47,986 bases of DNA from Candidatus Aenigmatarchaeota archaeon (GTDB lineage Archaea; Aenigmatarchaeota; Aenigmatarchaeia; PWEA01). Position 1 is the stretch's first letter, and each line of letters begins with the position of its first letter. The notes under the pieces are model-generated. The model had not been told where the DNA came from and made no database searches. It was given only the letters and a program-made list of their open reading frames with translations. Of this stretch, positions 30 through 21,011 are shown piece after piece. The stretch is taken from contig PWIB01000046.1 of NCBI GenBank assembly GCA_003555465.1, positions 1 to 47,986 of the forward strand, in the 5' to 3' direction. The position numbers and the translations under genes were made by a program.

Positions 30-164
30 TCAACCCTGAAACCTTCCTTTACAGAGCTTACAACCCTCCTCAAGGACACAGTCCGAACATACCAAAGCTC
101 CACAGAAAGAACAGTTGCGCATTGCTTCGCTCTCCTTTCCACAGGACTGACAGATTCCGCTCAT
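30..164 (-). CDS. small zinc-ribbon protein (44 aa), below the ORF-track cut-off
   Basis: Manual reverse translation gives MSGICQSCGKESEAMRNCSFCGALVCSDCVLEEGCKLCKGRFQG, with 8 Cys. Its ATG (162-164) lies 1 nt after the stop of the upstream regulator gene, suggesting translational coupling. Confidence 0.4.
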   Translation of the reverse strand: MSGICQSCGKESEAMRNCSFCGALVCSDCVLEEGCKLCKGRFQG

Positions 165-165
165 A

Positions 166-654
166 CTAATCCCTTGGTATCTCAACCTCAGAAAGTTTAT
201 CAACGTACCTTTCCAGCCTCTTCATCTGCCTGTTCAGAGTGGTCAAGCCTTCAAGAATGCTATCAGAATCCTCGGAGTCAAACTCCTCAAGCTTGCCTTC
301 GTACTCTTCAAGGCTTTCTATAGTTCCTGCTATTGTCTTCTGTAGCTGTATAACTATAGCCTGTTTCAAACCCTCAAGTATGTCGCCCTCCATTTTCACA
401 TAAAGCTTTCTATCGCCCTTCTTCTTCACCTTTTCGATTATACCAAGGACCTCGAGCAGGTCAAGCGAAAGAGAAATGGAAGAAGAGCTGTAGCCGGTCT
501 CCTCTGAAAGCTCCTGGAGGGACATTTCATCGCCGTCCATTATAAGGGCTGCTATTATCCTTCCATGGATTTCATCGTAGCCTATCGAAGAAGCTGTGTT
601 TGAAAAGGAAGAATATATTTCGTCCTTTACGTCCTCGATGTCCTTATCTCCCAT
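166..654 (-). CDS. GbsR/MarR-type winged-helix transcriptional regulator
   Basis: 162 aa. IHGRIIAALIMDGDEMSLQELSEETGYSSSSISLSLDLLEVLGIIEKV is a typical wHTH of COG1510-like regulators. It has a C-terminal coiled coil. Confidence 0.6.
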   Translation of the reverse strand: MGDKDIEDVKDEIYSSFSNTASSIGYDEIHGRIIAALIMDGDEMSLQELSEETGYSSSSISLSLDLLEVLGIIEKVKKKGDRKLYVKMEGDILEGLKQAIVIQLQKTIAGTIESLEEYEGKLEEFDSEDSDSILEGLTTLNRQMKRLERYVDKLSEVEIPRD

Positions 655-745
655 ACTACCGTTCTAAACTTCTAAGTCATTGTTTTTAAGCTTTCAAGGA
701 GAAGTAAATTTAAAAGAGTCCGTAGAAAATAAGCTTAGTGAGAAA

Positions 746-886
746 ATGCCCGCTGAAGAAATTATTGACATGGAGTTTTTTGAACTCCTCTTCCAAGGGA
801 TAGTAGCCTTTCTGGTAGTTCTATTCCTAGTAGTTCTGACGTATGTTATTTACAGGCATTTCAAGAAGAGCGGAGATGAAGAGTAG
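746..886 (+). CDS. small single-pass membrane protein (internal ATG of ORF 680..886)
   Basis: Hydrophobic helix GIVAFLVVLFLVVLTYVIY. A TATA-like AAATTTAAAAG lies about 30 nt upstream of the ATG at 746. The TTG at 680 is less likely. Confidence 0.35.
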   Translation: MPAEEIIDMEFFELLFQGIVAFLVVLFLVVLTYVIYRHFKKSGDEE

Positions 887-949
887 AGTTTAACCGATAT
901 CTGACTGCGGAGATTTTATAAATCTAGAGCTCCATTCTTAGGTTGCATT

Positions 950-2953
950 ATGTCCAAGGAAAGGGTACTCATCACCTCTGCACTACCTTACATTCACGGA
1001 ATTCCACACCTAGGTAACATAATAACTTCGATACTTCCTGCGGACGTATATCACAGGTACCAGAGGCTAAAGGGTAAGAACTCCCTTTTTATCTGTGCCT
1101 CCGACTCACATGGAACTATGCATGAAATAGAGGCAAAGAAGGAAGGAGTAAAAACTGAAGAGCTGGTCTACGAAAGCCATGAAAAGGTAAGGTCTCTTCT
1201 CGAGGAATTCAACTTCGACTTCTCATACTACGGAATAACCGACTCCGAGCAAAACAGAAGTACAACGGAGCATATATTCCACAAGCTTGACGAGAACAAC
1301 TACATAGAGGAGAAAAGTATAGACGTGACCTACTGCAGGAACTGCGAGCAGTATCTCGCCGATCGGTGGATCGAGGGCGAGTGCCCCGAGTGTGGTGGCC
1401 TTGCAAGAGGTGACCAGTGCGACGACTGTGGGGAGCTCCTGGAACCGAAAGATATAATAGATCCATACTGCACACACTGCGGAAAGAAGGATATAGAGTT
1501 CAGGAAGTCAAAGCACCTCTTCCTTCAGCTAAACAAGTTTGAGGACTGGTTGAAGGAATGGATAGAAGGAAGGATGGGCAACAAGCTTACAAGAAGCGAA
1601 ACGCTTTCCTGGCTTAACGAAGGTCTGGAAGAAAGGTGCATATCAAGGGACGCTAGCTGGGGCTTCAGCATACCGAAGGAAGGATTTGAGGACAAAGTCT
1701 TTTACGTATGGTTCGACGCACCTATAGGATACATAGGCGCTACAAGGAGCTGGGCGGAGGAAAACAACGAGGACTGGGAGGAGTGGTGGAGGGACGACTC
1801 CATCGAGTACTTCCAGTTTATGGGAAAGGACAACATACCCTTCCACAGCATAATCTTCCCGAGCATGCTGAAAGGTACAGAGGAGCAATGGAACTTCGCC
1901 GACCATATAGTCGCTGGAAGCTTTATCCTTGCTGAAGACGTGAAGTTCTCAAAGAGCAGGGGAAAGGGGTTGAACCTTGAGACGGCGCTTGATGTAAGGA
2001 ACTCTGAATACTGGAGATACGTTCTTATGGCGCTCTACCCGAGAAACACAGACACAACCTTCTCCTGGGACGCCTTCAAGGAAAAGGTAAACAAAGAGCT
2101 CACTGACTCCTTCGGGAACTACGTCCATAGGATCCTGAAGTTCATAGACGAAAACTTCACCTCGGAAATTCCTGATGGTGAGATGGACGAAGAAGTTGCC
2201 CGTGAAGTAAGGGAGAAGATAGAAGAGATGGAAAGGGAACTGGAGGACTTCAGATTCAGGCAAGCAGTAAACAAGATAATAGAGATATCATCCCTGGGGA
2301 ACCAGTACTTCCAAAGAGAAGAACCTTGGAAAAAGATGGGCTCGGACCCTGAGGAGTGTAAAGATATAGTTTATACCTGTGCAAACATAGTCAGGTCCCT
2401 GGCAATAGTTTCCGATCCGTTCCTGCCAAAGACGGCGGAGAAGCTCTGGAGCTTTATTGGCATGGAAACGAATATACACGAGGAAAGTTGGACTAAGGCC
2501 AAAGAGTTCGATCTGAGAAGTAAAACTATAACCGAACCTGAACCGTTGTTTGAAAAAATAAAGGACGATGATATACCTGACTTTGACAACGAAAAGAATA
2601 AAAGCAAAAAACAAGGAGGTGAAGAAAATATGATTAGCTTTGATGAGTTCAAGGAGCTTGACATCAGAATCGGTGAGATTAAAGAGGTTGATGACATCGA
2701 GGGTTCCGACAACCTGCTGAAGTTCCAGATAGACGTAGGTGACGAAACGAAGCAGTCCGTCGGTGGTCTGAAGGGACATTACACAGAAGAGGAGCTTGTA
2801 GGTAGAAAGGTTCCTGTGCTTGTAAACCTCGAAACATCCGAACTGATGGGCGAGAAAAGCGAGTGTATGATTCTCGCGGCCGTTGTAGGAAACAAAGAGC
2901 CTGTGCTTCTTGAGCCAGAAAGGGATCTAGAGGCTGGAACAGGAGTCGCATAG
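950..2953 (+). CDS. metG: methionyl-tRNA synthetase with C-terminal tRNA-binding (Trbp111/EMAP-like) domain
   Basis: HIGH-type motif PHLGN, KMSKS-type motif KFSKS, and zinc knuckles CRNCEQ/CPECGG/CDDCG/CTHCG. The C-terminal OB domain reads DIRIGEIKEV...LLKFQIDVG. TATA TTTTATAAAT lies about 30 nt upstream. Confidence 0.95.
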   Translation: MSKERVLITSALPYIHGIPHLGNIITSILPADVYHRYQRLKGKNSLFICASDSHGTMHEIEAKKEGVKTEELVYESHEKVRSLLEEFNFDFSYYGITDSEQNRSTTEHIFHKLDENNYIEEKSIDVTYCRNCEQYLADRWIEGECPECGGLARGDQCDDCGELLEPKDIIDPYCTHCGKKDIEFRKSKHLFLQLNKFEDWLKEWIEGRMGNKLTRSETLSWLNEGLEERCISRDASWGFSIPKEGFEDKVFYVWFDAPIGYIGATRSWAEENNEDWEEWWRDDSIEYFQFMGKDNIPFHSIIFPSMLKGTEEQWNFADHIVAGSFILAEDVKFSKSRGKGLNLETALDVRNSEYWRYVLMALYPRNTDTTFSWDAFKEKVNKELTDSFGNYVHRILKFIDENFTSEIPDGEMDEEVAREVREKIEEMERELEDFRFRQAVNKIIEISSLGNQYFQREEPWKKMGSDPEECKDIVYTCANIVRSLAIVSDPFLPKTAEKLWSFIGMETNIHEESWTKAKEFDLRSKTITEPEPLFEKIKDDDIPDFDNEKNKSKKQGGEENMISFDEFKELDIRIGEIKEVDDIEGSDNLLKFQIDVGDETKQSVGGLKGHYTEEELVGRKVPVLVNLETSELMGEKSECMILAAVVGNKEPVLLEPERDLEAGTGVA

Positions 2954-2975
2954 AAGTGACCAGAAGCCAGCCACA

Positions 2976-4019
2976 TCAGTCAATTTTCTTTAGTTCGTAC
3001 TCTCTGCTGCCTAAACCTATCTTCTCTGCATGTTTAACCTGTATGTCCGGATTTACCATAACTTCTTTGAACATAAACTTGGACTTGCCTATGAGATCCA
3101 GACTGGCCTGATCTATAGCTACAGGGTCCTCTGAGACCAGAACACCTACGTCTTCCACGAAAGGTTCCTGCTTCTCATCGACACAGTCACACTTCTTTGT
3201 TATATTCAACAGGAAGCTGACAAAAAGAACCTTTCTTTCTTTAACTACACCCTTTGCATACTCGGCTATCCTCTTCTGAAGCTCCTTCCGCGAGCTTGAG
3301 GCCCATGGTATCTTCACAGCTCCCTCCGGACAGACAGCAATACAGCCTCCGCAGCCCACACACTTTTCGTGGTCTATTTCGGCCTGCTCAGAAGATAGCA
3401 AACCTTCTGAGGATATAGAAATCGCATCCTCGGGACAGTTCTCAACACATTTTCCACAGGCTACGCATTTCTTCCCTTTGATCTTCAGTTGAAAGGCATT
3501 GTGCATCTCCACCTTGCCTGCCTTGCTTCCTAGACCCATGCCGATGTTTTTCAGTGCTCCTCCGAAGCCACTTCCCAAATGGCCTGTAAAATGTGTTACT
3601 GCAAGCAGACAGTCGTAGTCCTGAAGAGCTCCACCAAGTCTAACCCTGTCGAATATATCTCCGTCTATCTCCACTTCCGTTTCTTCCCTACCTTTCTCGC
3701 CGTCAGCTATTACTATCGGCGCGAAATCAAAGCCGTTGTCTCTTGCAACTTTTTTGTGCGTAGAAGCAAGAGCTCGGGGGCTGTTATACAGTACTGTGCA
3801 GTCCATAAGGTCACAGGCTTCACCTTTCCCTTCAACAAGACTGTATATAGGCTCAACCCAACCAGGCTTCAGGTGCGTATCGCTGTCCCTCTCGCCGAAG
3901 TGCAACTTTAAAGCTATCTTCCTTCCATTGAAATCCTTAAGGAAAGGTTCTAACTTCTCAGCGATTTCTTCCGGATTAATGGACTCGACGTCGGTCTCCC
4001 AGAGGTATACGTCTGACAC
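2976..4019 (-). CDS. DUF362 domain protein with 2x[4Fe-4S] ferredoxin insert
   Basis: Two CxxCxxCxxxCP motifs (CVACGKCVENCP, CVGCGGCIAVCP) sit inside a DUF362-like scaffold (KIALKLHFGE...). GTG start. Confidence 0.8.
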   Translation of the reverse strand: MSDVYLWETDVESINPEEIAEKLEPFLKDFNGRKIALKLHFGERDSDTHLKPGWVEPIYSLVEGKGEACDLMDCTVLYNSPRALASTHKKVARDNGFDFAPIVIADGEKGREETEVEIDGDIFDRVRLGGALQDYDCLLAVTHFTGHLGSGFGGALKNIGMGLGSKAGKVEMHNAFQLKIKGKKCVACGKCVENCPEDAISISSEGLLSSEQAEIDHEKCVGCGGCIAVCPEGAVKIPWASSSRKELQKRIAEYAKGVVKERKVLFVSFLLNITKKCDCVDEKQEPFVEDVGVLVSEDPVAIDQASLDLIGKSKFMFKEVMVNPDIQVKHAEKIGLGSREYELKKID

Positions 4020-4057
4020 TTTACCAATCTATGGATGTTTTTCTTCAGTAAAAAGGT

Positions 4058-4076
4058 TTGGAAACGGAGTTTCCAA
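4058..4076. repeat. perfect 8-bp inverted repeat TTGGAAAC-GGA-GTTTCCAA
   Basis: Read directly. It lies 39-57 nt upstream of the DUF362 GTG start and about 80 nt downstream of the tRNA-Pro 3' end. On the minus strand it is followed by CCTTTTTAC. It shares its arm sequence with the hairpin at 41719-41740. Confidence 0.6.
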
Positions 4077-4143
4077 TACTTGAAAATCAACGACTTTCAA
4101 TATTGTGCTGTATTTTTCATGAACGTTTTTGCGACCGAAGGGA

Positions 4144-4152
4144 GTAAAAAGG
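4144..4152 (-). terminator. oligo-T tract directly after tRNA-Pro
   Basis: The minus strand reads ...CCA-GAACCTTTTTAC immediately 3' of the encoded CCA. Archaeal terminators are typically T-runs. Confidence 0.35.
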
Positions 4153-4155
4153 TTC

Positions 4156-4285
4156 TGGTGGGCCGGCCGTGATTTGTCCAAACCCAAGGTCCAGCCTTTT
4201 GGCTGAAACCTTTTCTAAAGGTTTCTTGAACACGGGTCTGGGCGCCCCGAACGCCCGATGCTAGTCCAGGCTACACCACCGGCCC
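4156..4285 (-). tRNA. tRNA-Pro (anticodon CGG) with a roughly 52-nt intron in the T-loop and an encoded CCA
   Basis: Minus strand reads GGGCCGG-TG-GTGT-AGCCTGGACTA-GCAT-C-GGGCG-TTCGGGG-CGCCC-AGAC-CCGTG-TTCAA[intron]AT-CACGG-CCGGCCC-A-CCA. Acceptor, anticodon and T stems pair perfectly, and the D stem pairs with 2 GU. G37 fits tRNA-Pro. Confidence 0.8.
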
Positions 4286-15325: not shown

Positions 15326-16657
15326 ATGCCAGGCAAGACTCCTGTAAAGAAGGTAAGTGCGAAGAAAGCAAGGAAGAAGGTAAAGACCTTTTCTGAAGAA
15401 GTAGCTCCAAAGCTAGACCCTAAAGCCAGGAACATGTGCCTGAAATGCCGCGGAACCAAGAAGCTTTGTGGTAAGGAAAAATGTCCCGTTCTACAGAAAT
15501 ATTACTCACAGGTCGGTGACGAGAAGAAGAAAAAGTTCGATACCAAGGAGATAGAAGGTAATTCGCCGCCCTCTGTTTTTATTGGAAGGTACAACTACCC
15601 GAAGGTAAACGTTGGTCCTCTCGTTCCTCCTGAAAAGGGCGATACGTCCGTTTATTCTCGTCCTGAGAAGTGGTTCGGAACTGCAGAAATGAACGATATC
15701 ATAGAGATGAGAGGAAATCTTGCAAGAGGGAAGAAAAAGCTCACCAGCGACGTGAAGATAAACAATATTGGAAGGGACGAGCAGGAACTGAGATACCTCG
15801 CTCTGTCAAAGAACCCTGCCGAAACAGAGGTAAAGTTCAAGAAGAATCTCAACGAATCCATGAAGCTTGATGGAAGGTCGCAGCCGCATGGACCTTCCGG
15901 ACCCATGGAATCATTCAAAAGAGGAACTATGAGCTCAGACCAGCGCCTGGAAAAGGTGTTCTACGACAAAGACCTCAAAGCCAACAAAGCCGTGAAGAAA
16001 TTATACAGCAAAGGCGTTTCTGTCTCAAGAATACAGGATATATTTGCAGTTGGTGGAACCGGAATCAAGGAAAAAAGAAAGTTTGTACCAACCAGGTGGA
16101 GTATAACAGCTGTGGACGACATTCTAGGTAAAGACATGAGGAAAAGCGTTAAAACGTATCAAAGGATAAACGAGTGGCGCGTATATAAAACCAACTACCT
16201 TGACAATCAATGGGTAGTCGTGTTTACTCCTGAAACTTGGCGCTACGAGCTAATAGAAGCCTTCTACCCAGAGACGACATGGAATCCTTCAAAGGACTCA
16301 ATAACGATATTCGGAGACCATGAGGAGTTCGACGGGAGAGACGATTATGCTTCCATAGGAGGGTGTTATTACGCTGCTAGGCTCGCAGTACTCGAAAAAC
16401 TTGAAGAGGAAAGGAGGCAGGCCGGTGTCCTTGTGCTGAGGGAGGCGAGACCGGGATACATACTTCCTGTAGGGGTCTGGTTGACGAGAGAATCTATAAG
16501 AAACGCTCTGGGAGCAAGGCCCCGAAAATTTAATTCTTCTGAGGAAGTGTTGGGATTCATCAGGCAACTAACAGACCTGTCTTTAGATGAATGGGTGTCA
16601 GTCTCGAGGCTACTCAAAACCAGAGAAAAGCAAAGGACAATCGAATCTTATCTTTGA
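15326..16657 (+). CDS. nreA: Nre-family DNA repair protein (NreA-like, DUF650/DUF651)
   Basis: It has an N-terminal CLKCRGTKKLCGKEKCP cysteine motif, FIGRYNYP, a C-terminal CYYAARLAVLE and PVGVWLTRESIRNAL. 443 aa. Assigned from recalled family features. Confidence 0.7.
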   Translation: MPGKTPVKKVSAKKARKKVKTFSEEVAPKLDPKARNMCLKCRGTKKLCGKEKCPVLQKYYSQVGDEKKKKFDTKEIEGNSPPSVFIGRYNYPKVNVGPLVPPEKGDTSVYSRPEKWFGTAEMNDIIEMRGNLARGKKKLTSDVKINNIGRDEQELRYLALSKNPAETEVKFKKNLNESMKLDGRSQPHGPSGPMESFKRGTMSSDQRLEKVFYDKDLKANKAVKKLYSKGVSVSRIQDIFAVGGTGIKEKRKFVPTRWSITAVDDILGKDMRKSVKTYQRINEWRVYKTNYLDNQWVVVFTPETWRYELIEAFYPETTWNPSKDSITIFGDHEEFDGRDDYASIGGCYYAARLAVLEKLEEERRQAGVLVLREARPGYILPVGVWLTRESIRNALGARPRKFNSSEEVLGFIRQLTDLSLDEWVSVSRLLKTREKQRTIESYL

Positions 16658-16659
16658 AT

Positions 16660-18165
16660 CACAGACAAAATAACTCAGAAAGTTCGTAAGAAAACAACAT
16701 TGGGGAGCTTTTTAAGAAATTTGAAATAATTATGCCTTTTCCCATATAACTTTTCGTCCGTCCTTACCAACCCTTTTTATTAAATTCTCCTCTTCTAAAT
16801 GCAAGAGGTGCTCTCTGAGAGAAGCTGGGCGTATGTTTAATTTTGTAGCCAGTTCGTTCGCTGTGTTTAAATCTTTCTCCAGAAATTTAATTATCAACTC
16901 TTTTGTTTTCCCAGGTGGTCTCCTATCCCATTTTCTATTCTTCCTGCGGATGAATTGCTCTAAATAAGCCATCTTAGACGCCAGGTCACAAGTCGGAAAT
17001 TCCTTGGAAAGCGACTTGATATCCTTATAAAATTGCGGAAGACTCTCCGATGAGATAATCAACCTATATGTATCAAATTTACCGTATCTATACTTTTTAT
17101 TTATAGAGGTTTTATAGCCCAGCTTCCGGGCTATTTGAAAAATATCTTTAGCAAGTTCACAATTTTTAGAATATATTTCTAAAGCATCGCTCATATGACC
17201 ATCATCAACTATGAAGGCGGCCAAACCGGCAACAAGAAATTTTTTAGGAAGAGTTTTAATGTGCTCAGGAATTCCTATGGATGAAGAGAGTTCACCTTCA
17301 TAAAAATGGTGTATGTAGAATTGTGTAATGGGACGGGGTATTAACAATTTACTATTTTCGTAGATTCGGACCTCAAAATCTCCAAAACATTTCCTTAACT
17401 TTTTTTCGAAGTTCTTCAAATTAACTGTATTGGTTTGTCTGTAGTGAGATTGATCGGTGCCCGTCCCTATATGACCATCACCGCAGAAATGGAAAAGTAC
17501 TGATACCATTTCAGGTGTAAAAAGCACCGGTAAGTTTGGGTCGTTCACCCGCAACGAATTTCCAGAAGCAGCATAGTATTCTATTTCCTTTTCTGCTTTT
17601 TTCATTAATTTATTGTCCGGGCTAGAAGAATCTGAAAGAAGTTTTGAAATTTCTATCAGGACCCACAATGGAATATTCACCTCGATTGTTTTCTCTTTAG
17701 TCTTTTTGAGTCCAACTCTCCAAGAACGAAAATTGGATGTATTATAGTTGCGTTCAATGCCGTATTTTTCGGCCCTCTGATTGATAAGAAAGACAAAGTC
17801 CTTGATTACAAAGTTGTCTTTAATAATAGAAAATATCCTCTTCCTGAATTCATCATTTAGGCGAATAAATATCTCAGTAGGCGGAAATTCCCATATGTGA
17901 ACTTCTTTGTATTTTTCTTCCATGCCTTCGTTATTCTCACGAGTGTTTAAGTACCTTTTGGTCATTGGAATATTTAGGAATCGGAACTGTCTGGAACGTC
18001 CGCGAGTCCGTGAGGAACGCCCTGGAAAAGAAACCAATAAAGTTTGAAAACAGAGAAAAGACGTCCGAACATCTGAAACAAGCGTTCGACCTCGAATTAG
18101 GCCAGTGACTCTCCGTTTCCAAGCTACTGAAAAGTAGGGAGAAACAGGAAGACCTAAGGTCCTTT
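16660..18165. mobile_element. low-GC island carrying a free-standing LAGLIDADG-type gene (possible selfish or foreign insertion)
   Basis: Hand counts on 60-nt samples give 30% GC at 17041-17100 and at 17341-17400. Flanking genes give 48% (18301-18360) and 55% (16381-16440). The encoded protein is basic, unlike the acidic neighbours. No terminal repeats were found. Confidence 0.35.
16730..18037 (-). CDS. double-motif LAGLIDADG homing-endonuclease-like protein with C-terminal winged-helix
   Basis: The two dodecapeptide-like motifs are VLFHFCGDGHIG and LVAGLAAFIVDDGHMS, about 90 aa apart. The C-terminal wHTH reads ELATKLNIRPASLREHLLHLEEENLIKRVG. The true start is probably internal (MTKRYL at 17965 or MEEKYK at 17923). 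Confidence 0.65.
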   Translation of the reverse strand: MVSFPGRSSRTRGRSRQFRFLNIPMTKRYLNTRENNEGMEEKYKEVHIWEFPPTEIFIRLNDEFRKRIFSIIKDNFVIKDFVFLINQRAEKYGIERNYNTSNFRSWRVGLKKTKEKTIEVNIPLWVLIEISKLLSDSSSPDNKLMKKAEKEIEYYAASGNSLRVNDPNLPVLFTPEMVSVLFHFCGDGHIGTGTDQSHYRQTNTVNLKNFEKKLRKCFGDFEVRIYENSKLLIPRPITQFYIHHFYEGELSSSIGIPEHIKTLPKKFLVAGLAAFIVDDGHMSDALEIYSKNCELAKDIFQIARKLGYKTSINKKYRYGKFDTYRLIISSESLPQFYKDIKSLSKEFPTCDLASKMAYLEQFIRRKNRKWDRRPPGKTKELIIKFLEKDLNTANELATKLNIRPASLREHLLHLEEENLIKRVGKDGRKVIWEKA

Positions 18166-18167
18166 GT

Positions 18168-19262
18168 CTAGAACCTCAGTTCCAAGATGTCTTCGTCCTT
18201 CAGTTCATGGTCTTCCCCGACCTTCTGTCCCGGAAACTTTGCGCTTTCACCCCAGACCTTGGCATAGCTCAGTTCGCCGGTAAAATCTTTGCTTAACTCG
18301 TCCATTACTTCCTCCACGGTCGAACCTTCACAGACTATAAGAGGTTCGTCCTTGTCAGGTTCCTTTCCTCTCTCCTTCATGTAAACCCTCATAAGCCCAA
18401 GGCCTTTCCATAACCTTTCCTTGAACTCTTCCAGGTTTTCATGCTCTTCAGCGGAGACAAAGATCCAGTCCTCGTTGTCGTTTTTCAGACGCTCAAGCTC
18501 GCCTTCATCCATATCATCCGTTTTGTTGAGGCATACAACACCGGGCATATACACCCTGTTGTTCATCAACCCGTCTATGAACTCGTCCAAGGTCACATCC
18601 TCTCTAACAACTACCTTGCAGTTAACGAAGCCATGATCCCTCAAAACCTTTTCCATAGTCTCTTCGTCCAGGTTCACGTCCTTTGTAGTCGATATCTCTA
18701 TCCCGCCTTCACCCCTTTCAAACACGTCCATGTCAGGAGGTTCTTTGTTCAGCCTTACTCCGTTTTGGTACAGTTCCTCTTCCATCTCCTCGACCATTTC
18801 CATTTTTTCTATATCTGTTACCAGCACTACCATATCCGAACTTCTTACGACAGATAGAACCTGCTTACCGCCGCCTCTGTCCTCGGCAGCGCCGCTTATA
18901 AGACCCGGAACGTCCAGTATCTGTATGTTAGCTCCCTTGTAGTCCATCATACCAGGAACTACTTCCAGGGTTGTGAACTCGTACCCAGCCACTTCAGAAT
19001 CAGCATTCGTCAGGCTATTCAAAAGGGTGGACTTACCTACAGAGGGAGGACCAACCAGAGAAACGGTTGCATCGCCTCTTTGCTTTACGGCATAGCCCTG
19101 TCCTGAGGCCTGGCTCTCCTTCTCCTTCTGCTCCTTTTTTTCTTTAAGTCGTGCTATCTTCGCCTTCAGCCGTCCGCGTTCAGTCTCCGTGGACTTGTTC
19201 ACAGGCGTCTCTCTTAGCTTCTCCTTCGTTTTTTCTATTTCCTTTTCTATGGACATAACCAA
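18168..19262 (-). CDS. DRG/Rbg-type GTPase with TGS domain
   Basis: G1 GPPSVGKSTLLN, G3 DVPGLI, G4 LNKTD, and a C-terminal TGS-like YAKVWGESAKFPGQKVGEDHELKDEDILEL. The likely ATG is at 19256. Confidence 0.85.
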   Translation of the reverse strand: MVMSIEKEIEKTKEKLRETPVNKSTETERGRLKAKIARLKEKKEQKEKESQASGQGYAVKQRGDATVSLVGPPSVGKSTLLNSLTNADSEVAGYEFTTLEVVPGMMDYKGANIQILDVPGLISGAAEDRGGGKQVLSVVRSSDMVVLVTDIEKMEMVEEMEEELYQNGVRLNKEPPDMDVFERGEGGIEISTTKDVNLDEETMEKVLRDHGFVNCKVVVREDVTLDEFIDGLMNNRVYMPGVVCLNKTDDMDEGELERLKNDNEDWIFVSAEEHENLEEFKERLWKGLGLMRVYMKERGKEPDKDEPLIVCEGSTVEEVMDELSKDFTGELSYAKVWGESAKFPGQKVGEDHELKDEDILELRF

Positions 19263-19399
19263 ACTTTCAGACGAGAAGGTTTTAAAGGTTGTGTCCGTCA
19301 GAAACCGCCGAGTAAGTAAATAATAAGAGCCGTAGCGACACCAACGAGAAGCAAATAGTCCGTGAAAAGGATTTTAAGTCTTGAAAATGACCTTTAGTT

Positions 19400-20200
19400 A
19401 TGAAAATTAAAGAGGTTGAATGCAAATCCGTTCTATCGGATACGAAGCTTTATGGACTGGACTACTCATTGAATCCTTACACTGGATGTGGACATTCGTG
19501 TGCCTACTGCTACGCAGTCTTTATGAAAAAGTTCACCGGGCACGAAGAGGACTGGGGAAGCTTTGTAGACGTTAAGGTAAACGCACCCGAAGTTTTGGAT
19601 AAGGAGGTTCGTAAAAAAGAAAAGGGTTCAGTGCTTCTGTCCTCGGTAACCGACGCCTACCAACCCCTGGAAGAGGAATATGAAATTACGAGGGAAATCC
19701 TTGAGATACTCCAAGAAAACGGCTTCAACGTAAGTATACTTACAAAGAATGACCTTGTACTCCGGGATATGGACATCCTGAAGAGGTTCGACCATGGAAG
19801 TCTGTCCATTGGTTTCACGATAAATTTTCTGAGTGAAGGTGATAGGAAGTTATGGGAGCCCGGAGCCTCTAAAATAGACGAAAGGATAGAGGCTCTGAGA
19901 AGGCTGGAGGAAGAAGGAATTCCTACCTACGTGCACGTTGGTCCCTGGCTGGAGGGTATAACCAATCTGGAGAAAATACTGAACAGAGTGGAAGATTATG
20001 TCTACGACTTCCAGGTCGAAAACCTAAATACGAAAAGGAAGCAAGTTATAAAGAGAATTATCAGAAAGAACTATCCCGGACTCGAAGAGAGGTACAAAAA
20101 AATTATGAAAAATCCCAAAAAGCACAACAGACGACTGGAAGGAGAGATAGAGAAGCTCAGGAAGAATACGGAGGTTCCGCTACAACTTTACATAGACTGA
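19400..20200 (+). CDS. SPL-family radical SAM protein (DNA photolyase-like)
   Basis: CGHSCAYCY is a CxxxCxxC cluster preceded by NPYTGC. Size is 266 aa. Confidence 0.75.
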   Translation: MKIKEVECKSVLSDTKLYGLDYSLNPYTGCGHSCAYCYAVFMKKFTGHEEDWGSFVDVKVNAPEVLDKEVRKKEKGSVLLSSVTDAYQPLEEEYEITREILEILQENGFNVSILTKNDLVLRDMDILKRFDHGSLSIGFTINFLSEGDRKLWEPGASKIDERIEALRRLEEEGIPTYVHVGPWLEGITNLEKILNRVEDYVYDFQVENLNTKRKQVIKRIIRKNYPGLEERYKKIMKNPKKHNRRLEGEIEKLRKNTEVPLQLYID

Positions 20201-20258
20201 TTCGGTATACAAAAGACTTATATAACTACTTCAATCAATATTTACAGAAGGTGTTAAG

Positions 20259-21011
20259 ATGTTCAAAGCAAAGCTATCGGATCCTTCACTACTGAAGAAC
20301 TCTGTAGACACTATATCGGAACTAATCCATGAGGGACTTTTCAAGATAGACTCAGAATCCCTCTACATGAGGGCTGCAGACAGAGCTACAGTAGCTGTAG
20401 TCGACTTCGAACTTAAAAAGGACGCCTTTGAAGAGTTCGAATGCGATGAAGAAACGAAGATAGGCGTAAACCTTGAAAGTCTGCTGGACATTCTCAAAAG
20501 AGCTAAGAAAGACGATAGTCTGGTGCTTGAGCTTTCAGAGGACGAGTCCAGACTAAAGATATCAATAGGCGACGGTACAAAGAGGGACTTCGAGATGCCA
20601 CTCCTTTCTATATCAGAAGGAGAGGTACCGGAGACCAAGCAGCTTGATTTCACAGCAGAGATGGAACTGAAGAGCTCGGTTCTAAGTAAAGGAATAGCCG
20701 ATGCAGAGATCGTCGCAGACTCCGTCCTTTTCAAGGCAGAGAAGGAAAGCCTCACGCTTGTAGCCGACAGTGACTCAGGGAGCGTTGAAGCGAAGACAGG
20801 AAAAGGTTCTGAAGATCTAATGGAGATAAAGGTCGATGAAGAGACGGAAAGCAGATACCCGTTAGAATATCTGAAGAAGATGCTCAAGGCCTCAAAGATA
20901 TCCGACGTGGCTTCTCTCAAGTTTGGAAACGACTATCCCATGGAGCTGAAGTTTGAGGAGCCAGGTCAGATAAAGATATCCTTTGTTCTTGCTCCCCGCG
21001 TCGAGGACTAG
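20259..21011 (+). CDS. pcn: PCNA sliding clamp
   Basis: 250 aa. MFKAKLSDPSLLKNSVDTISELIHEGLFKIDSESLYMRAADRATVAVVDFEL is a typical PCNA N-terminus. SD AGGTG is present. Confidence 0.9.
   Translation: MFKAKLSDPSLLKNSVDTISELIHEGLFKIDSESLYMRAADRATVAVVDFELKKDAFEEFECDEETKIGVNLESLLDILKRAKKDDSLVLELSEDESRLKISIGDGTKRDFEMPLLSISEGEVPETKQLDFTAEMELKSSVLSKGIADAEIVADSVLFKAEKESLTLVADSDSGSVEAKTGKGSEDLMEIKVDEETESRYPLEYLKKMLKASKISDVASLKFGNDYPMELKFEEPGQIKISFVLAPRVED

What the first reader, a model, noticed from the sequence alone, without database searches (positions are those of the whole stretch)
16660..18165. Low-GC island with a free-standing LAGLIDADG-wHTH gene wedged between nreA and the DRG GTPase
Hand-counted 60-nt samples inside the gene are 30% GC, against 48-55% in the flanking genes. 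The protein is basic and rich in K, N, I and F, whereas the host proteome is acidic. It carries two LAGLIDADG-like motifs (FHFCGDGHIG and AGLAAFIVDDGHMS) at the usual spacing. It also has an unassigned N-terminal region of about 170 aa and a C-terminal winged helix. It is not inside an intron or an intein. It may be a recently acquired selfish endonuclease, or a domesticated LAGLIDADG-fold DNA-binding regulator.
Basis: partly seen in the sequence, partly recalled or inferred. Interest (0 to 1): 0.6.

Follow-up and report, generated by a model that had tools for sequence, protein, structure and literature searches.

The report
Homing endonuclease cassette replacing nreA's tail
A selfish 1.5-kb DNA cassette, made of a free-standing LAGLIDADG homing endonuclease gene plus a foreign spare copy of the last 58 codons of the DNA-repair gene nreA, has inserted into nreA of this tiny archaeal genome and pushed the original gene tail aside, a spreading strategy so far described mainly in fungal mitochondria.

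Summary
The gene (16730..17923, minus strand, 397 aa) has 36.7% GC against a genome mean of 46.0%. It is the third-lowest of 470 ORFs, and its pI is 9.4 against a proteome median of 4.85. It is a double-motif LAGLIDADG enzyme with both catalytic acids conserved, a C-terminal winged helix, and a confidently folded N-terminal domain with no known structural match.

Positions 17995..18171 hold the displaced native 3' end of nreA, with one in-frame TGA. The tail now fused to nreA (16481..16657) is foreign. So a 1,508-bp cassette sits in nreA after codon 385.

- Five same-family genomes show the empty site; only one other species of the genus carries the cassette.
- Between those two species the cassette has pS 0.22, while five flanking core genes have pS 0.72-0.84. 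The cassette therefore moved horizontally.
- In all 19 distinct relatives examined across DPANN archaea, the gene abuts the nreA 3' end. Four other lineages keep tail remnants.

The best reading is an nreA-specific homing endonuclease that spreads by gene-tail replacement. It is a new variant of a known kind (fungal mitochondrial mORFs). Cleavage itself is untested. An earlier first-reader note (e1-1474335) recorded the same family on another genome.

The parts
15326..16480 (+). Native 5' part of nreA (codons 1-385). It ends with the conserved ...PGYILPVGVW.
   Evidence: Pfam Nre_N and Nre_C match. This part is 90% identical at protein level to the nearest HEG-less species G007. From about 16316 to 16480 the DNA is closer to the other carrier G002 than to G007, which suggests a co-conversion tract.
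16475..16480 (+). GTCTGG (Val-Trp codons) at the left junction. The same hexamer recurs at the right junction.
   Evidence: Read directly from the sequence.
16481..16657 (+). Foreign nreA 3' end carried by the cassette: 58 codons plus stop, LTRESIRNAL...KQRTIESYL*. It is in frame with native nreA and keeps a C-terminal PIP box (QRTIESYL).
   Evidence: It is only 41% identical to the G007 tail although the upstream part is 90% identical. dS is 0.24 against G002, like the HEG and unlike the flanks. Only the two carrier species have this tail in a 5.8-billion-protein search. The need for the PIP motif comes from PMC4929162.
16658..16729 (.). AT-rich spacer (29% GC) between the convergent stops of nreA and the endonuclease gene.
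   Evidence: It is about 90% identical between the two carrier species.
16730..17923 (-). Free-standing LAGLIDADG homing endonuclease gene (397 aa from MEEKY). An upstream in-frame ATG at 17965 would give 411 aa; the TTG at 18037 is unlikely to be the start.
   Evidence: ORF. Homologues start at the MEEKY-equivalent position. Residues 1-15 of the 411-aa form have pLDDT below 50. dN/dS is 0.19 against G002.
17522..17917 (-). N-terminal domain (about 132 aa; invariant H, W, F-P, PLW..E..K). It is confidently folded but has no known fold match. It is presumed to be an extra DNA-binding module.
   Evidence: AF2 pLDDT 93.3. No Foldseek match in PDB (best E 2.7) or BFVD (best E 0.16). It is found at the N-terminus of 129 protein clusters at 50% identity.
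16991..17521 (-). Double LAGLIDADG core. Motif 1 is SVLFHFCGDGHIG (17465..17503; catalytic Asp codon 17477..17479). Motif 2 is FLVAGLAAFIVDDGHM (17192..17239; catalytic Asp codon 17201..17203).
   Evidence: Pfam LAGLIDADG_3 is above its cut-off. Foldseek matches I-DmoI (TM 0.58-0.68), the TliVMA intein HE, PI-SceI and I-Tsp061I. GDG is invariant, and D/E at the motif-2 position is conserved in 22/22 and 19/19 sequences. Coordinates were checked.
16733..16918 (-). C-terminal winged helix-turn-helix (ArsR/MarR-like).
   Evidence: Pfam HTH_5 scores 21.4 bits against a cut-off of 22. A profile search hits ZitR/AdcR/ArsR structures at E 9e-5. AF2 gives an H-H-H-beta-beta arrangement.
17924..17988 (-). 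Upstream region of the endonuclease gene at the right edge of the cassette, with a TATA-like TAAATATT (plus-strand AATATTTA at 17969..17976).
   Evidence: Sequence only. Promoter function is inferred, not tested.
17989..17994 (+). GTCTGG at the right junction, a repeat of 16475..16480.
   Evidence: Identity to G002 falls from about 0.9 to about 0.65 just past this point.
17995..18171 (+). Displaced native nreA 3' end: 58 codons plus stop, NVRESVRNAL...GQ*LSVSKLLKSREKQEDLRSFV*, with an in-frame TGA at 18106..18108 replacing the conserved Trp. It is a pseudogene remnant.
   Evidence: It is 72% identical to the G007 tail and 47% identical to the tail now in use. It matches the Nre_C HMM at 41.4 bits. 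Its stop overlaps the DRG stop (CTAG), as in the empty sites.
18168..19262 (-). DRG/Obg-family GTPase gene, the original convergent neighbour of nreA.
   Evidence: Pfam MMR_HSR1, MMR_HSR1_Xtn and TGS. It abuts nreA directly in G001, G003, G005 and G008.

Best explanation
Window 16481..17988 is a 1,508-bp mobile cassette. It consists of (i) a foreign copy of the last 58 codons of nreA, (ii) a short AT-rich spacer, and (iii) on the opposite strand, a free-standing monomeric double-motif LAGLIDADG homing endonuclease with an extra N-terminal domain and a C-terminal winged helix, plus its own upstream region.

Inferred mechanism:
- The enzyme recognises the highly conserved nreA sequence that encodes ...PVGVW|NVRE... 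in a cassette-free genome and cuts it.
- The break is repaired from a cassette-bearing copy. The nreA body serves as the left homology arm, and the donor's displaced nreA tail serves as the right arm.
- The cassette is thereby copied in after codon 385.
- nreA stays functional because the cassette supplies a substitute tail in frame, including the C-terminal PCNA-binding PIP box. No intron or intein splicing is needed.
- The resident tail is pushed downstream, is no longer translated, and decays.
- The new junctions no longer carry the target, so the carrier is immune.

Shown here: the chimeric gene, the displaced tail, the empty sites, horizontal movement of the cassette, the constant insertion point across the family, the fold, and the conserved catalytic residues.

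Inferred: cleavage activity, the exact target, the repair pathway, and the roles of the N-terminal and wHTH domains as extra DNA-binding modules.
For: 1. Chimeric nreA. NreA residues 1-385 are 90% identical to the nearest species G007. Residues 386-443 are only 41% identical, whereas the untranslated remnant at 17995..18171 is 72% identical to the G007 tail.

2. Presence and absence.
- Only G000 and G002 of the 8 species of the genus carry the gene.
- G001, G003 and G005 (same genus) and G008 (sister genus) have nreA and the DRG gene convergent with abutting stops.
- G007 has the native tail.
- nreA is a single-copy gene in 56 of 61 relatives. Only the two carriers have a second, partial Nre_C match.

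3. Horizontal movement.
- Between G000 and G002 the HEG has pS 0.22 (dS 0.27) and the foreign tail has dS 0.24.
- The nreA body, DRG, rSAM, PCNA, primase and the remnants have pS 0.72-0.84, which is saturated.
- Identity is about 0.9 inside the cassette and drops sharply to about 0.65 at 17995.
- The left edge is graded, with a stretch of about 150 bp where G000 is closer to G002 than to its sister G007. This is co-conversion-like.

4. Site specificity across the family.
- In all 19 distinct homologous loci, from Woesearchaeota, Iainarchaeota, Nanoarchaeota and other DPANN MAGs (40-89% identity), the gene is convergent with and abuts or overlaps the 3' end of nreA. The other flank varies.
- Displaced nreA tails lie upstream of the HEG in four further distinct loci besides G002: L035, L036, L043 and L030 (the same contig as L038). 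In L035 and L036 they start at the same codon.

5. The enzyme.
- Pfam LAGLIDADG_3 is above threshold.
- The AF2 model has pLDDT 89.6 and matches I-DmoI, I-Tsp061I, PI-SceI and the TliVMA intein HE.
- The catalytic Asp of motif 1 and the Asp/Glu of motif 2 are conserved in all members.
- dN/dS is 0.19.

6. Composition is foreign for this genome.

7. The substitute tail keeps a PIP box. That motif is essential for NreA function in Haloferax (PMC4929162).
Against: - No cleavage assay exists, and the target sequence is only inferred from the insertion point.
- The strict linkage to nreA in every lineage, the overlapping 3' ends and the wHTH would also fit a dedicated nreA-associated DNA-binding partner.
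- Most distant loci show no remnant, so mobility is directly evidenced only in some lineages.
- The donor of the foreign tail was not found.
- No copy was found on viral contigs, so the vehicle between cells is unknown.
- All genomes are MAGs.
Confidence: 0.85

Rival explanations
1. Domesticated LAGLIDADG-fold DNA-binding protein (WhiA-like). It would regulate nreA or work with it, and would be inherited as part of an nreA module. Its endonuclease activity would be irrelevant or lost.
For: - It sits next to nreA in all 19 loci examined, often with overlapping 3' ends.
- It has a C-terminal wHTH.
- It is under purifying selection, dN/dS 0.19.
- WhiA appears among the structural matches.
Against: - It is absent from 6 of the 7 other species of the genus and from most relatives that have nreA.
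- Both catalytic acids are conserved in every member, unlike WhiA.
- Native nreA tails are displaced in several lineages.
- The cassette is far younger than its flanks.
Confidence: 0.07
2. The cassette did arrive by homing, but the endonuclease in this genome is now a stranded, inactive or decaying passenger. It would be at the late stage of the homing cycle and would no longer move.
For: - The native remnant, which would be the right homology arm, has already acquired a stop.
- Many distant loci have lost the remnant altogether.
- No activity data exist.
Against: - The ORF is intact in both carrier species, with dN/dS 0.19 and all catalytic and family-invariant residues present.
- Most species of the genus still offer empty sites.
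Confidence: 0.06
3. Assembly or binning artefact: a low-GC fragment from another organism joined into this MAG contig.
For: The genome is a 62-contig MAG, and the segment is compositionally foreign.
Against: - The same architecture, with the same junctions, occurs in independently assembled contigs from JGI, ENA, Logan and NCBI for the sister carrier. Eleven contigs carry the protein, up to 97 kb long.
- The junctions fall in frame within a codon series of nreA.
- The remnant matches the host lineage.
Confidence: 0.02

Closest known systems
Mobile endonuclease ORFs (mORFs) of fungal mitochondria that create hybrid genes: Allomyces macrogynus atp6; Glomus atp6, atp9, cox2 and nad3 (PMC3630166, which cites the Allomyces work)
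   Same: - An endonuclease ORF is inserted in the 3' part of a conserved gene.
- The element carries a foreign C-terminal coding segment fused in frame to the native gene body.
- The native C-terminus is displaced downstream of the ORF and is unused.
- The native tail clusters with relatives, while the inserted tail does not.
   Different: - The host here is an archaeal (DPANN) chromosome, not a mitochondrion.
- The endonuclease is on the opposite strand with its own upstream region, not in phase or co-transcribed with the host gene.
- The target is the repair gene nreA.
- The enzyme has an extra N-terminal domain of unknown fold and a C-terminal wHTH.
Archaeal intron-encoded LAGLIDADG enzymes I-DmoI and I-Tsp061I
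   Same: Monomeric double-motif LAGLIDADG fold (Foldseek TM 0.58-0.68 normalised to the target), with an acidic residue at the end of each motif.
   Different: Those enzymes are about 180-200 aa and lie inside rRNA introns. This one is free-standing, twice as long with two added domains, and targets a protein-coding gene. No intron RNA was detected.
Intein-borne endonuclease domains (PI-SceI, TliVMA intein) and, from general knowledge, the yeast HO endonuclease as a free-standing derivative with an added DNA-binding domain
   Same: These are the best structural matches, and the Pfam family LAGLIDADG_3 is typical of inteins. Like HO, this is a free-standing LAGLIDADG enzyme with an appended C-terminal DNA-binding module.
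   Different: No Hint or splicing domain is present. The N-terminal domain is alpha/beta with no match to Hint. Host-gene function is preserved by tail replacement, not by protein splicing.
Free-standing homing endonucleases of T4-like phages (Seg and Mob proteins; intronless homing, e.g. PMC2790892)
   Same: The gene lies between or within host genes without an intron or intein. It is mobilised together with flanking DNA by double-strand-break repair, and flanks are co-converted.
   Different: Those are GIY-YIG or HNH enzymes in phage genomes, and they do not carry a replacement for part of the target gene.
WhiA (bacterial LAGLIDADG plus HTH regulator)
   Same: A LAGLIDADG double domain followed by a C-terminal helix-turn-helix. 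WhiA is present among the fold matches.
   Different: From general knowledge, WhiA has lost the catalytic acids and is a vertically inherited core gene. Here the acids are conserved and the gene is sporadic.

Membership tests
LAGLIDADG homing endonuclease (monomeric, double-motif) | Two LAGLIDADG motifs about 90-100 residues apart in one chain | tested here: met
   SVLFHFCGDGHIG and FLVAGLAAFIVDDGHM are 92 residues apart. Pfam LAGLIDADG_3 scores 28.3 bits against a cut-off of 22.5.
LAGLIDADG homing endonuclease (monomeric, double-motif) | Acidic metal-binding residue at the end of each motif | tested here: met
   The Asp of GDG is invariant. Asp or Glu is present at the motif-2 position in 22/22 and 19/19 family members.
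LAGLIDADG homing endonuclease (monomeric, double-motif) | Tandem alpha-beta-beta-alpha-beta-beta-alpha fold | tested here: met
   The AF2 model has pLDDT 89.6. Foldseek probability is 1.00 to I-DmoI, I-Tsp061I, PI-SceI and the TliVMA intein HE.
LAGLIDADG homing endonuclease (monomeric, double-motif) | Site-specific double-strand cleavage of a long target at the insertion site | not testable with these tools
   This needs a biochemical assay on the empty-site nreA sequence.
LAGLIDADG homing endonuclease (monomeric, double-motif) | Mobility: presence/absence polymorphism at one precise site, with phylogeny discordant with the host | tested here: met
   Empty sites in G001, G003, G005 and G008. 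Cassette pS is 0.22 against flank pS 0.72-0.84. The insertion codon is the same in distant lineages.
mORF-type gene-tail-replacement elements (fungal mitochondria) | Foreign C-terminal coding segment fused in frame to the native gene, with the native C-terminus displaced downstream of the endonuclease ORF | tested here: met
   Described for mORFs in PMC3630166.
mORF-type gene-tail-replacement elements (fungal mitochondria) | Endonuclease ORF on the same strand as the host gene, in phase or co-transcribed with it | tested here: not met
   The endonuclease is convergent with nreA on the opposite strand.
mORF-type gene-tail-replacement elements (fungal mitochondria) | Resides in a mitochondrial genome | tested here: not met
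   The genome is archaeal: Nre, archaeal PCNA, primase and GINS neighbours, and DPANN MAG titles.
Intein- or intron-encoded endonuclease | Embedded in Hint splicing domains or in a self-splicing or bulge-helix-bulge intron RNA | tested here: not met
   No Hint or intein Pfam match. No Rfam match at E up to 1 in 16000..18600. The ORF is on the strand opposite to the interrupted gene.
WhiA-like domesticated LAGLIDADG-HTH regulators | Loss of the catalytic acids, and vertical inheritance as a core gene | tested here: not met
   The acids are conserved. The gene is present in 2 of 8 species of the genus. The wider N-domain family is present in 24 of 371 genomes of the phylum.

The most novel reading that the evidence does not exclude
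This gene may be the best-preserved example of a large, undescribed DPANN-wide superfamily of free-standing LAGLIDADG endonucleases. The superfamily has about 129 clusters at 50% identity and occurs in 24 of 371 genomes of the phylum.

Its members share a new N-terminal DNA-binding fold and a C-terminal wHTH. Each subfamily appears tied to one end of a particular housekeeping gene:
- the nreA 3' end;
- the tRNA-splicing endonuclease endA 3' end (4 loci);
- the alaS 5' side (3 loci);
- a Hel308-like helicase (2 loci);
- UPF0047 (with a displaced tail);
- RtcB.

These elements would spread by replacing the end of the gene. That would be a general, splicing-free way for homing endonucleases to colonise protein-coding genes of cellular chromosomes.
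Probability: 0.5. Interest if true: 0.75.

Novelty: new variant of a known kind. Interest (0 to 1): 0.62.

Why it matters
Homing endonucleases in archaea are known from rRNA and tRNA introns and from inteins, where splicing hides the insertion.

**A third solution in a cellular archaeal chromosome.** The element carries a spare gene tail, so the host gene is repaired at the DNA level. This strategy has been described for fungal mitochondrial mORFs.

**What this locus provides:**
- a concrete, testable enzyme and target pair: the protein, and the conserved PVGVW|NVRE-coding site of nreA;
- a natural record of interspecies transfer in ultra-small DPANN genomes, where routes of gene flow are poorly understood;
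- a confidently folded new domain attached to a LAGLIDADG scaffold, which is of interest for engineering long-target nucleases.

**Annotation consequences.** The case explains chimeric nreA genes and the orphan 'Nre_C' mini-ORFs that pipelines call, such as the 68-aa gene in the JGI record.

Tried and rejected
- **TTG start at 18037 (435 aa).** Rejected. That stretch overlaps the nreA remnant, homologues start at the MEEKY-equivalent position, and residues before it are disordered in the model.
- **Intein or intron reading.** Rejected.
- **Other copies in the genome.** None found.
- **N-terminal domain.** No Pfam or NCBIfam match. No PDB sequence match. No Foldseek match in PDB or BFVD.
- **Donor of the foreign nreA tail.** Only the two carriers share it in the 5.8-billion-protein collection.
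- **Viral carriers.** No relative in IMG/VR.
- **Partial Nre_C matches in G012 and G056.** These looked like further remnants but are genes cut by contig ends.
- **Remnants near distant loci.** None detected for L026-L029 and L031, nor for the four endA-linked paralogues.
- **Literature.** No paper in the held library combines LAGLIDADG with NreA, or describes a free-standing archaeal LAGLIDADG-wHTH enzyme.
Full report
**Observation**

The region between the nreA stop (16657) and the stop of the DRG-family GTPase gene (18168) holds one long minus-strand ORF.

- Its GC is 0.367, against 0.460 for the 632-kb, 62-contig genome. This gives z = -3.8 against 5,582 same-length windows, of which 0.5% are as low.
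- It ranks 3rd-lowest in GC and 8th-lowest in GC3 among 470 ORFs of at least 150 aa.
- Its product has pI 9.4 in a proteome with median pI 4.85.
60-nt windows average 0.367, and the flanks are 0.457 and 0.483. The island is nevertheless real.

Annotation of the protein and its neighbours:

- Pfam gives LAGLIDADG_3 above its cut-off and a borderline ArsR-type HTH at the C-terminus.
- The neighbours are NreA (Nre_N plus Nre_C) and an MMR_HSR1/TGS GTPase.
- NCBIfam adds only weak C-terminal HTH-regulator matches, all far below their cut-offs.

On the plus strand, 17995..18171 reads NVRESVRNALEKKPIKFENREKTSEHLKQAFDLELGQ*LSVSKLLKSREKQEDLRSFV*. This is a second copy of the last 58 codons of nreA, with a TGA where the conserved Trp should be.

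- It matches the Nre_C model at 41.4 bits.
- Its stop overlaps the DRG stop (CTAG). That is exactly how nreA and the DRG gene abut in relatives lacking the endonuclease gene.
- The functional nreA is a chimera. Residues 1-385 are 90% identical to the closest species (G007). Residues 386-443 are only 41% identical. The untranslated remnant is 72% identical to the G007 tail.
- The break lies immediately after ...PGYILPVGVW. The hexamer GTCTGG, which encodes Val-Trp, stands at both junctions: 16475..16480 and 17989..17994.
- The inserted DNA is therefore 16481..17988, 1,508 bp at 37% GC. It comprises a foreign nreA tail (16481..16657), a 72-bp spacer at 29% GC, the endonuclease gene, and 65 bp upstream of it with a TATA-like TAAATATT.

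**Presence, absence and age**

- Among 60 relatives, only one other species of the genus (G002, 89% protein identity) has the gene.
- G001, G003 and G005 (same genus) and G008 (sister genus) show the empty site, with nreA and the DRG gene convergent and touching.
- G007 has the native tail, followed by an unrelated 177-aa ORF.
- nreA is a near-universal single-copy gene, present in 56 of 61 relatives. Only G000 and G002 have an extra partial Nre_C match.
- G002 has the same architecture, including its own native-like remnant, which is still open.
- G000 is closer to G007 than to G002: NreA body 90% against 82%, and DRG 78% against 74%.
- Between G000 and G002 the endonuclease gene has pS 0.22 (dS 0.27) and the foreign tail has dS 0.24. 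The nreA body, DRG, radical-SAM, PCNA and primase genes, and the two remnants, have pS 0.72-0.84, which is saturated.

The cassette in the two species therefore shares a much more recent ancestor than the genomes do. It moved horizontally and displaced each species' own tail.

Boundaries of the shared segment:

- Sliding identity between the two loci is about 0.9 across the cassette. It falls to about 0.65 within a few bases of 17995.
- On the left the change is gradual. For about 150 bp upstream of the junction (about 16316..16480), G000 is closer to G002 than to its sister G007. This is what a co-conversion tract from double-strand-break repair would look like.

**Family-wide behaviour**

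- A word-indexed search found 29 homologues at 39-100% identity.
- A scan of one genome per species found 15 loci in Woesearchaeota, Iainarchaeota, Nanoarchaeota, a 'Hadarchaeota'-labelled MAG and unclassified DPANN archaea.
- In every locus with enough sequence, the gene is convergent with nreA and abuts or overlaps its 3' end. The other neighbour differs from locus to locus: DRG, SplB-like radical SAM, HxlR, LeuA and others. This held for all 7 loci from look-ups and all 14 from the genome scan. Three contigs recur in both sets, so 18 distinct loci besides the window, 19 in all.
- Displaced nreA tails lie upstream of the endonuclease gene in G002 and in four further distinct loci: L035, L036, L043 and L030 (the same contig as L038). 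In L035 and L036 the remnant starts at the same codon as here, right after GV[FW].
- The junction lies in one of the most conserved stretches of NreA, P[VL]GVW-x-V-RE. Cassette-free alleles in this class read NV, QV, VV and so on at the two following codons. The two carriers read LT.

**The protein**

The probable start is MEEKY (17923), giving 397 aa. Homologues start there, and the 14 extra residues of the 411-aa form are disordered.

The AlphaFold2 model built from a 22-sequence alignment has pLDDT 89.6. It shows three parts.

1. *N-terminal alpha/beta domain of about 132 aa.* Modelled alone, it has pLDDT 93.3. It has no significant structural neighbour in PDB or BFVD and no Pfam match.
2. 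*Tandem LAGLIDADG core.* It matches I-DmoI (TM 0.58-0.68), I-Tsp061I, PI-SceI and the TliVMA intein endonuclease, with WhiA further down the list.
3. *MarR/ArsR-like winged helix*.

The metal-binding acids are the Asp of GDG and the Asp/Glu of D[DE][GA]. They are conserved in all 22 and all 19 aligned members down to 38% identity. dN/dS between the two carrier species is 0.19. These features argue for a working nuclease rather than a decayed or domesticated one.

**Mechanism (inferred)**

- The enzyme cuts the conserved nreA site in a cassette-free chromosome.
- Repair copies the cassette from a carrier. The nreA body is the left homology arm. The carrier's displaced tail, which is homologous to the recipient's own tail, is the right arm.
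- The recipient ends up with nreA body, foreign tail, spacer, endonuclease gene and its own (or a mosaic) tail as a new remnant.
- The foreign tail keeps the reading frame and ends in a PIP box (QRTIESYL; native QENLKSFI-type; remnant QEDLRSFV). The C-terminal PIP motif is required for NreA function in Haloferax volcanii (PMC4929162), so the insertion should be close to neutral.
- Neither junction restores the full target, which would protect carriers.
- One corollary follows. Once the remnant decays or is deleted, as in several distant loci, precise homing loses its right arm and the element is stranded.

**Comparison with what is known**

- The architecture matches the 'mORF' elements of fungal mitochondria. 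The Allomyces macrogynus atp6 hybrid and the Glomus atp6, atp9, cox2 and nad3 hybrids have an inserted foreign C-terminus, an endonuclease ORF and a displaced native C-terminus (PMC3630166).
- The differences are an archaeal chromosome, an opposite-strand endonuclease gene with its own upstream region, a different target, and two added domains.
- The core fold and the Pfam family are closest to intein-borne enzymes. However, there is no Hint domain and no intron RNA.
- Searches of the held literature found no description of an NreA-linked or free-standing archaeal LAGLIDADG-wHTH enzyme.
- I therefore class it as a new variant of a known kind.

**Beyond the finding**

- A profile of the N-terminal domain finds 129 clusters at 50% identity among 1.84 billion representatives. 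Nearly all carry the domain at the N-terminus. Most full-length members are 320-520 aa; many shorter entries look like fragments.
- Sampled members keep GDG and DEG and a C-terminal wHTH.
- In 371 genomes of the phylum, 24 carry such a gene, some with up to three copies.
- None of the 26 distant loci is next to nreA. They recur beside other housekeeping genes:
  - convergent with, and overlapping, the 3' end of the tRNA-splicing endonuclease gene in four genera;
  - directly upstream of alaS in three genomes, of a Hel308-like helicase in two, of radical-SAM genes in two, and of rtcB in one.
- One locus (L086) sits at the 3' end of a UPF0047 gene. A displaced copy of that gene's last 30 codons lies just upstream of the endonuclease gene (E 7.7e-7), and the local GC falls to 0.30.
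- A short possible remnant of 13 aa is seen in L102.

This suggests a broader class of gene-end-replacing homing elements in DPANN archaea, but only the nreA subfamily was examined in depth.

**Rivals**

- *WhiA-like domesticated partner of nreA.* This would explain the strict linkage and the wHTH. It does not explain the sporadic distribution, the retained catalytic acids, the displaced tails or the young age of the cassette.
- *Stranded, inactive copy.* This cannot be excluded without an assay, but the intact ORFs and dN/dS of 0.19 argue against it.
- *Assembly artefact.* This is unlikely, because the same junctions recur in independent assemblies from four sources.

**Limits**

- All genomes are MAGs.
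- The donor of the foreign tail and the vehicle of transfer are unknown.
- An earlier first-reader note of this scan (e1-1474335) described the same family on the 'Hadarchaeota' MAG. I confirmed that locus here as L026/L033.

Noticed in passing
L089, L096, L098, L101 (G184, G257, G115, G153): Distant paralogues with the same N-domain / LAGLIDADG / wHTH build are convergent with, and overlap, the 3' end of the tRNA-splicing endonuclease gene (endA) in four different genera. No displaced endA tail was detected.
   Followed up: partly
L086 (G342) 249..1940: A paralogue (706..1851, minus strand, GC 0.30) overlaps the 3' end of a UPF0047 gene. A displaced copy of that gene's last 30 codons (LLDFDTRDREREIVLQIIGD*) lies at 1851..1940. 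This is the same tail-replacement design on a different target.
   Followed up: partly
L097, L099, L103 (alaS); L008, L083 (Hel308-like helicase); L085, L100 (radical SAM); L092 (rtcB): Other paralogues sit directly upstream of, and co-directional with, these housekeeping genes, often with overlapping stop and start. Whether these are 5'-end replacements or something else was not examined.
   Followed up: no
L017 (G007) 2816..3349, minus strand: The closest HEG-less species has an unrelated acidic 177-aa ORF between nreA and the DRG gene. The nreA/DRG gap therefore accepts other insertions.
   Followed up: no
L043 465..2595: In one Woesearchaeota contig, a reverse-transcriptase-like ORF (YVDD motif) and a 303-aa ORF lie between the displaced nreA tail (62..208) and the endonuclease gene (3013..4224).
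   Followed up: no
L030/L038 4477..5593: In this carrier the nreA match is split into two pieces about 11 nt apart in different frames, and is called as separate ORFs. It is either a frameshifted nreA or a sequencing error.
   Followed up: no
window 17048..17050 (residue 306 of the 411-aa form): The database protein flagged as the window's own (P0001) has Leu where the window encodes Ser. This is a single-residue difference between assemblies of the same population.
   Followed up: partly
window 15326..21011: nreA lies close to a SplB-like radical-SAM gene (19400..20200) and PCNA (20259..21011). In L026 and L031 the endonuclease gene sits between nreA and the SplB-like gene, splitting the nre-splB pairing noted in PMC4929162.
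   Followed up: partly
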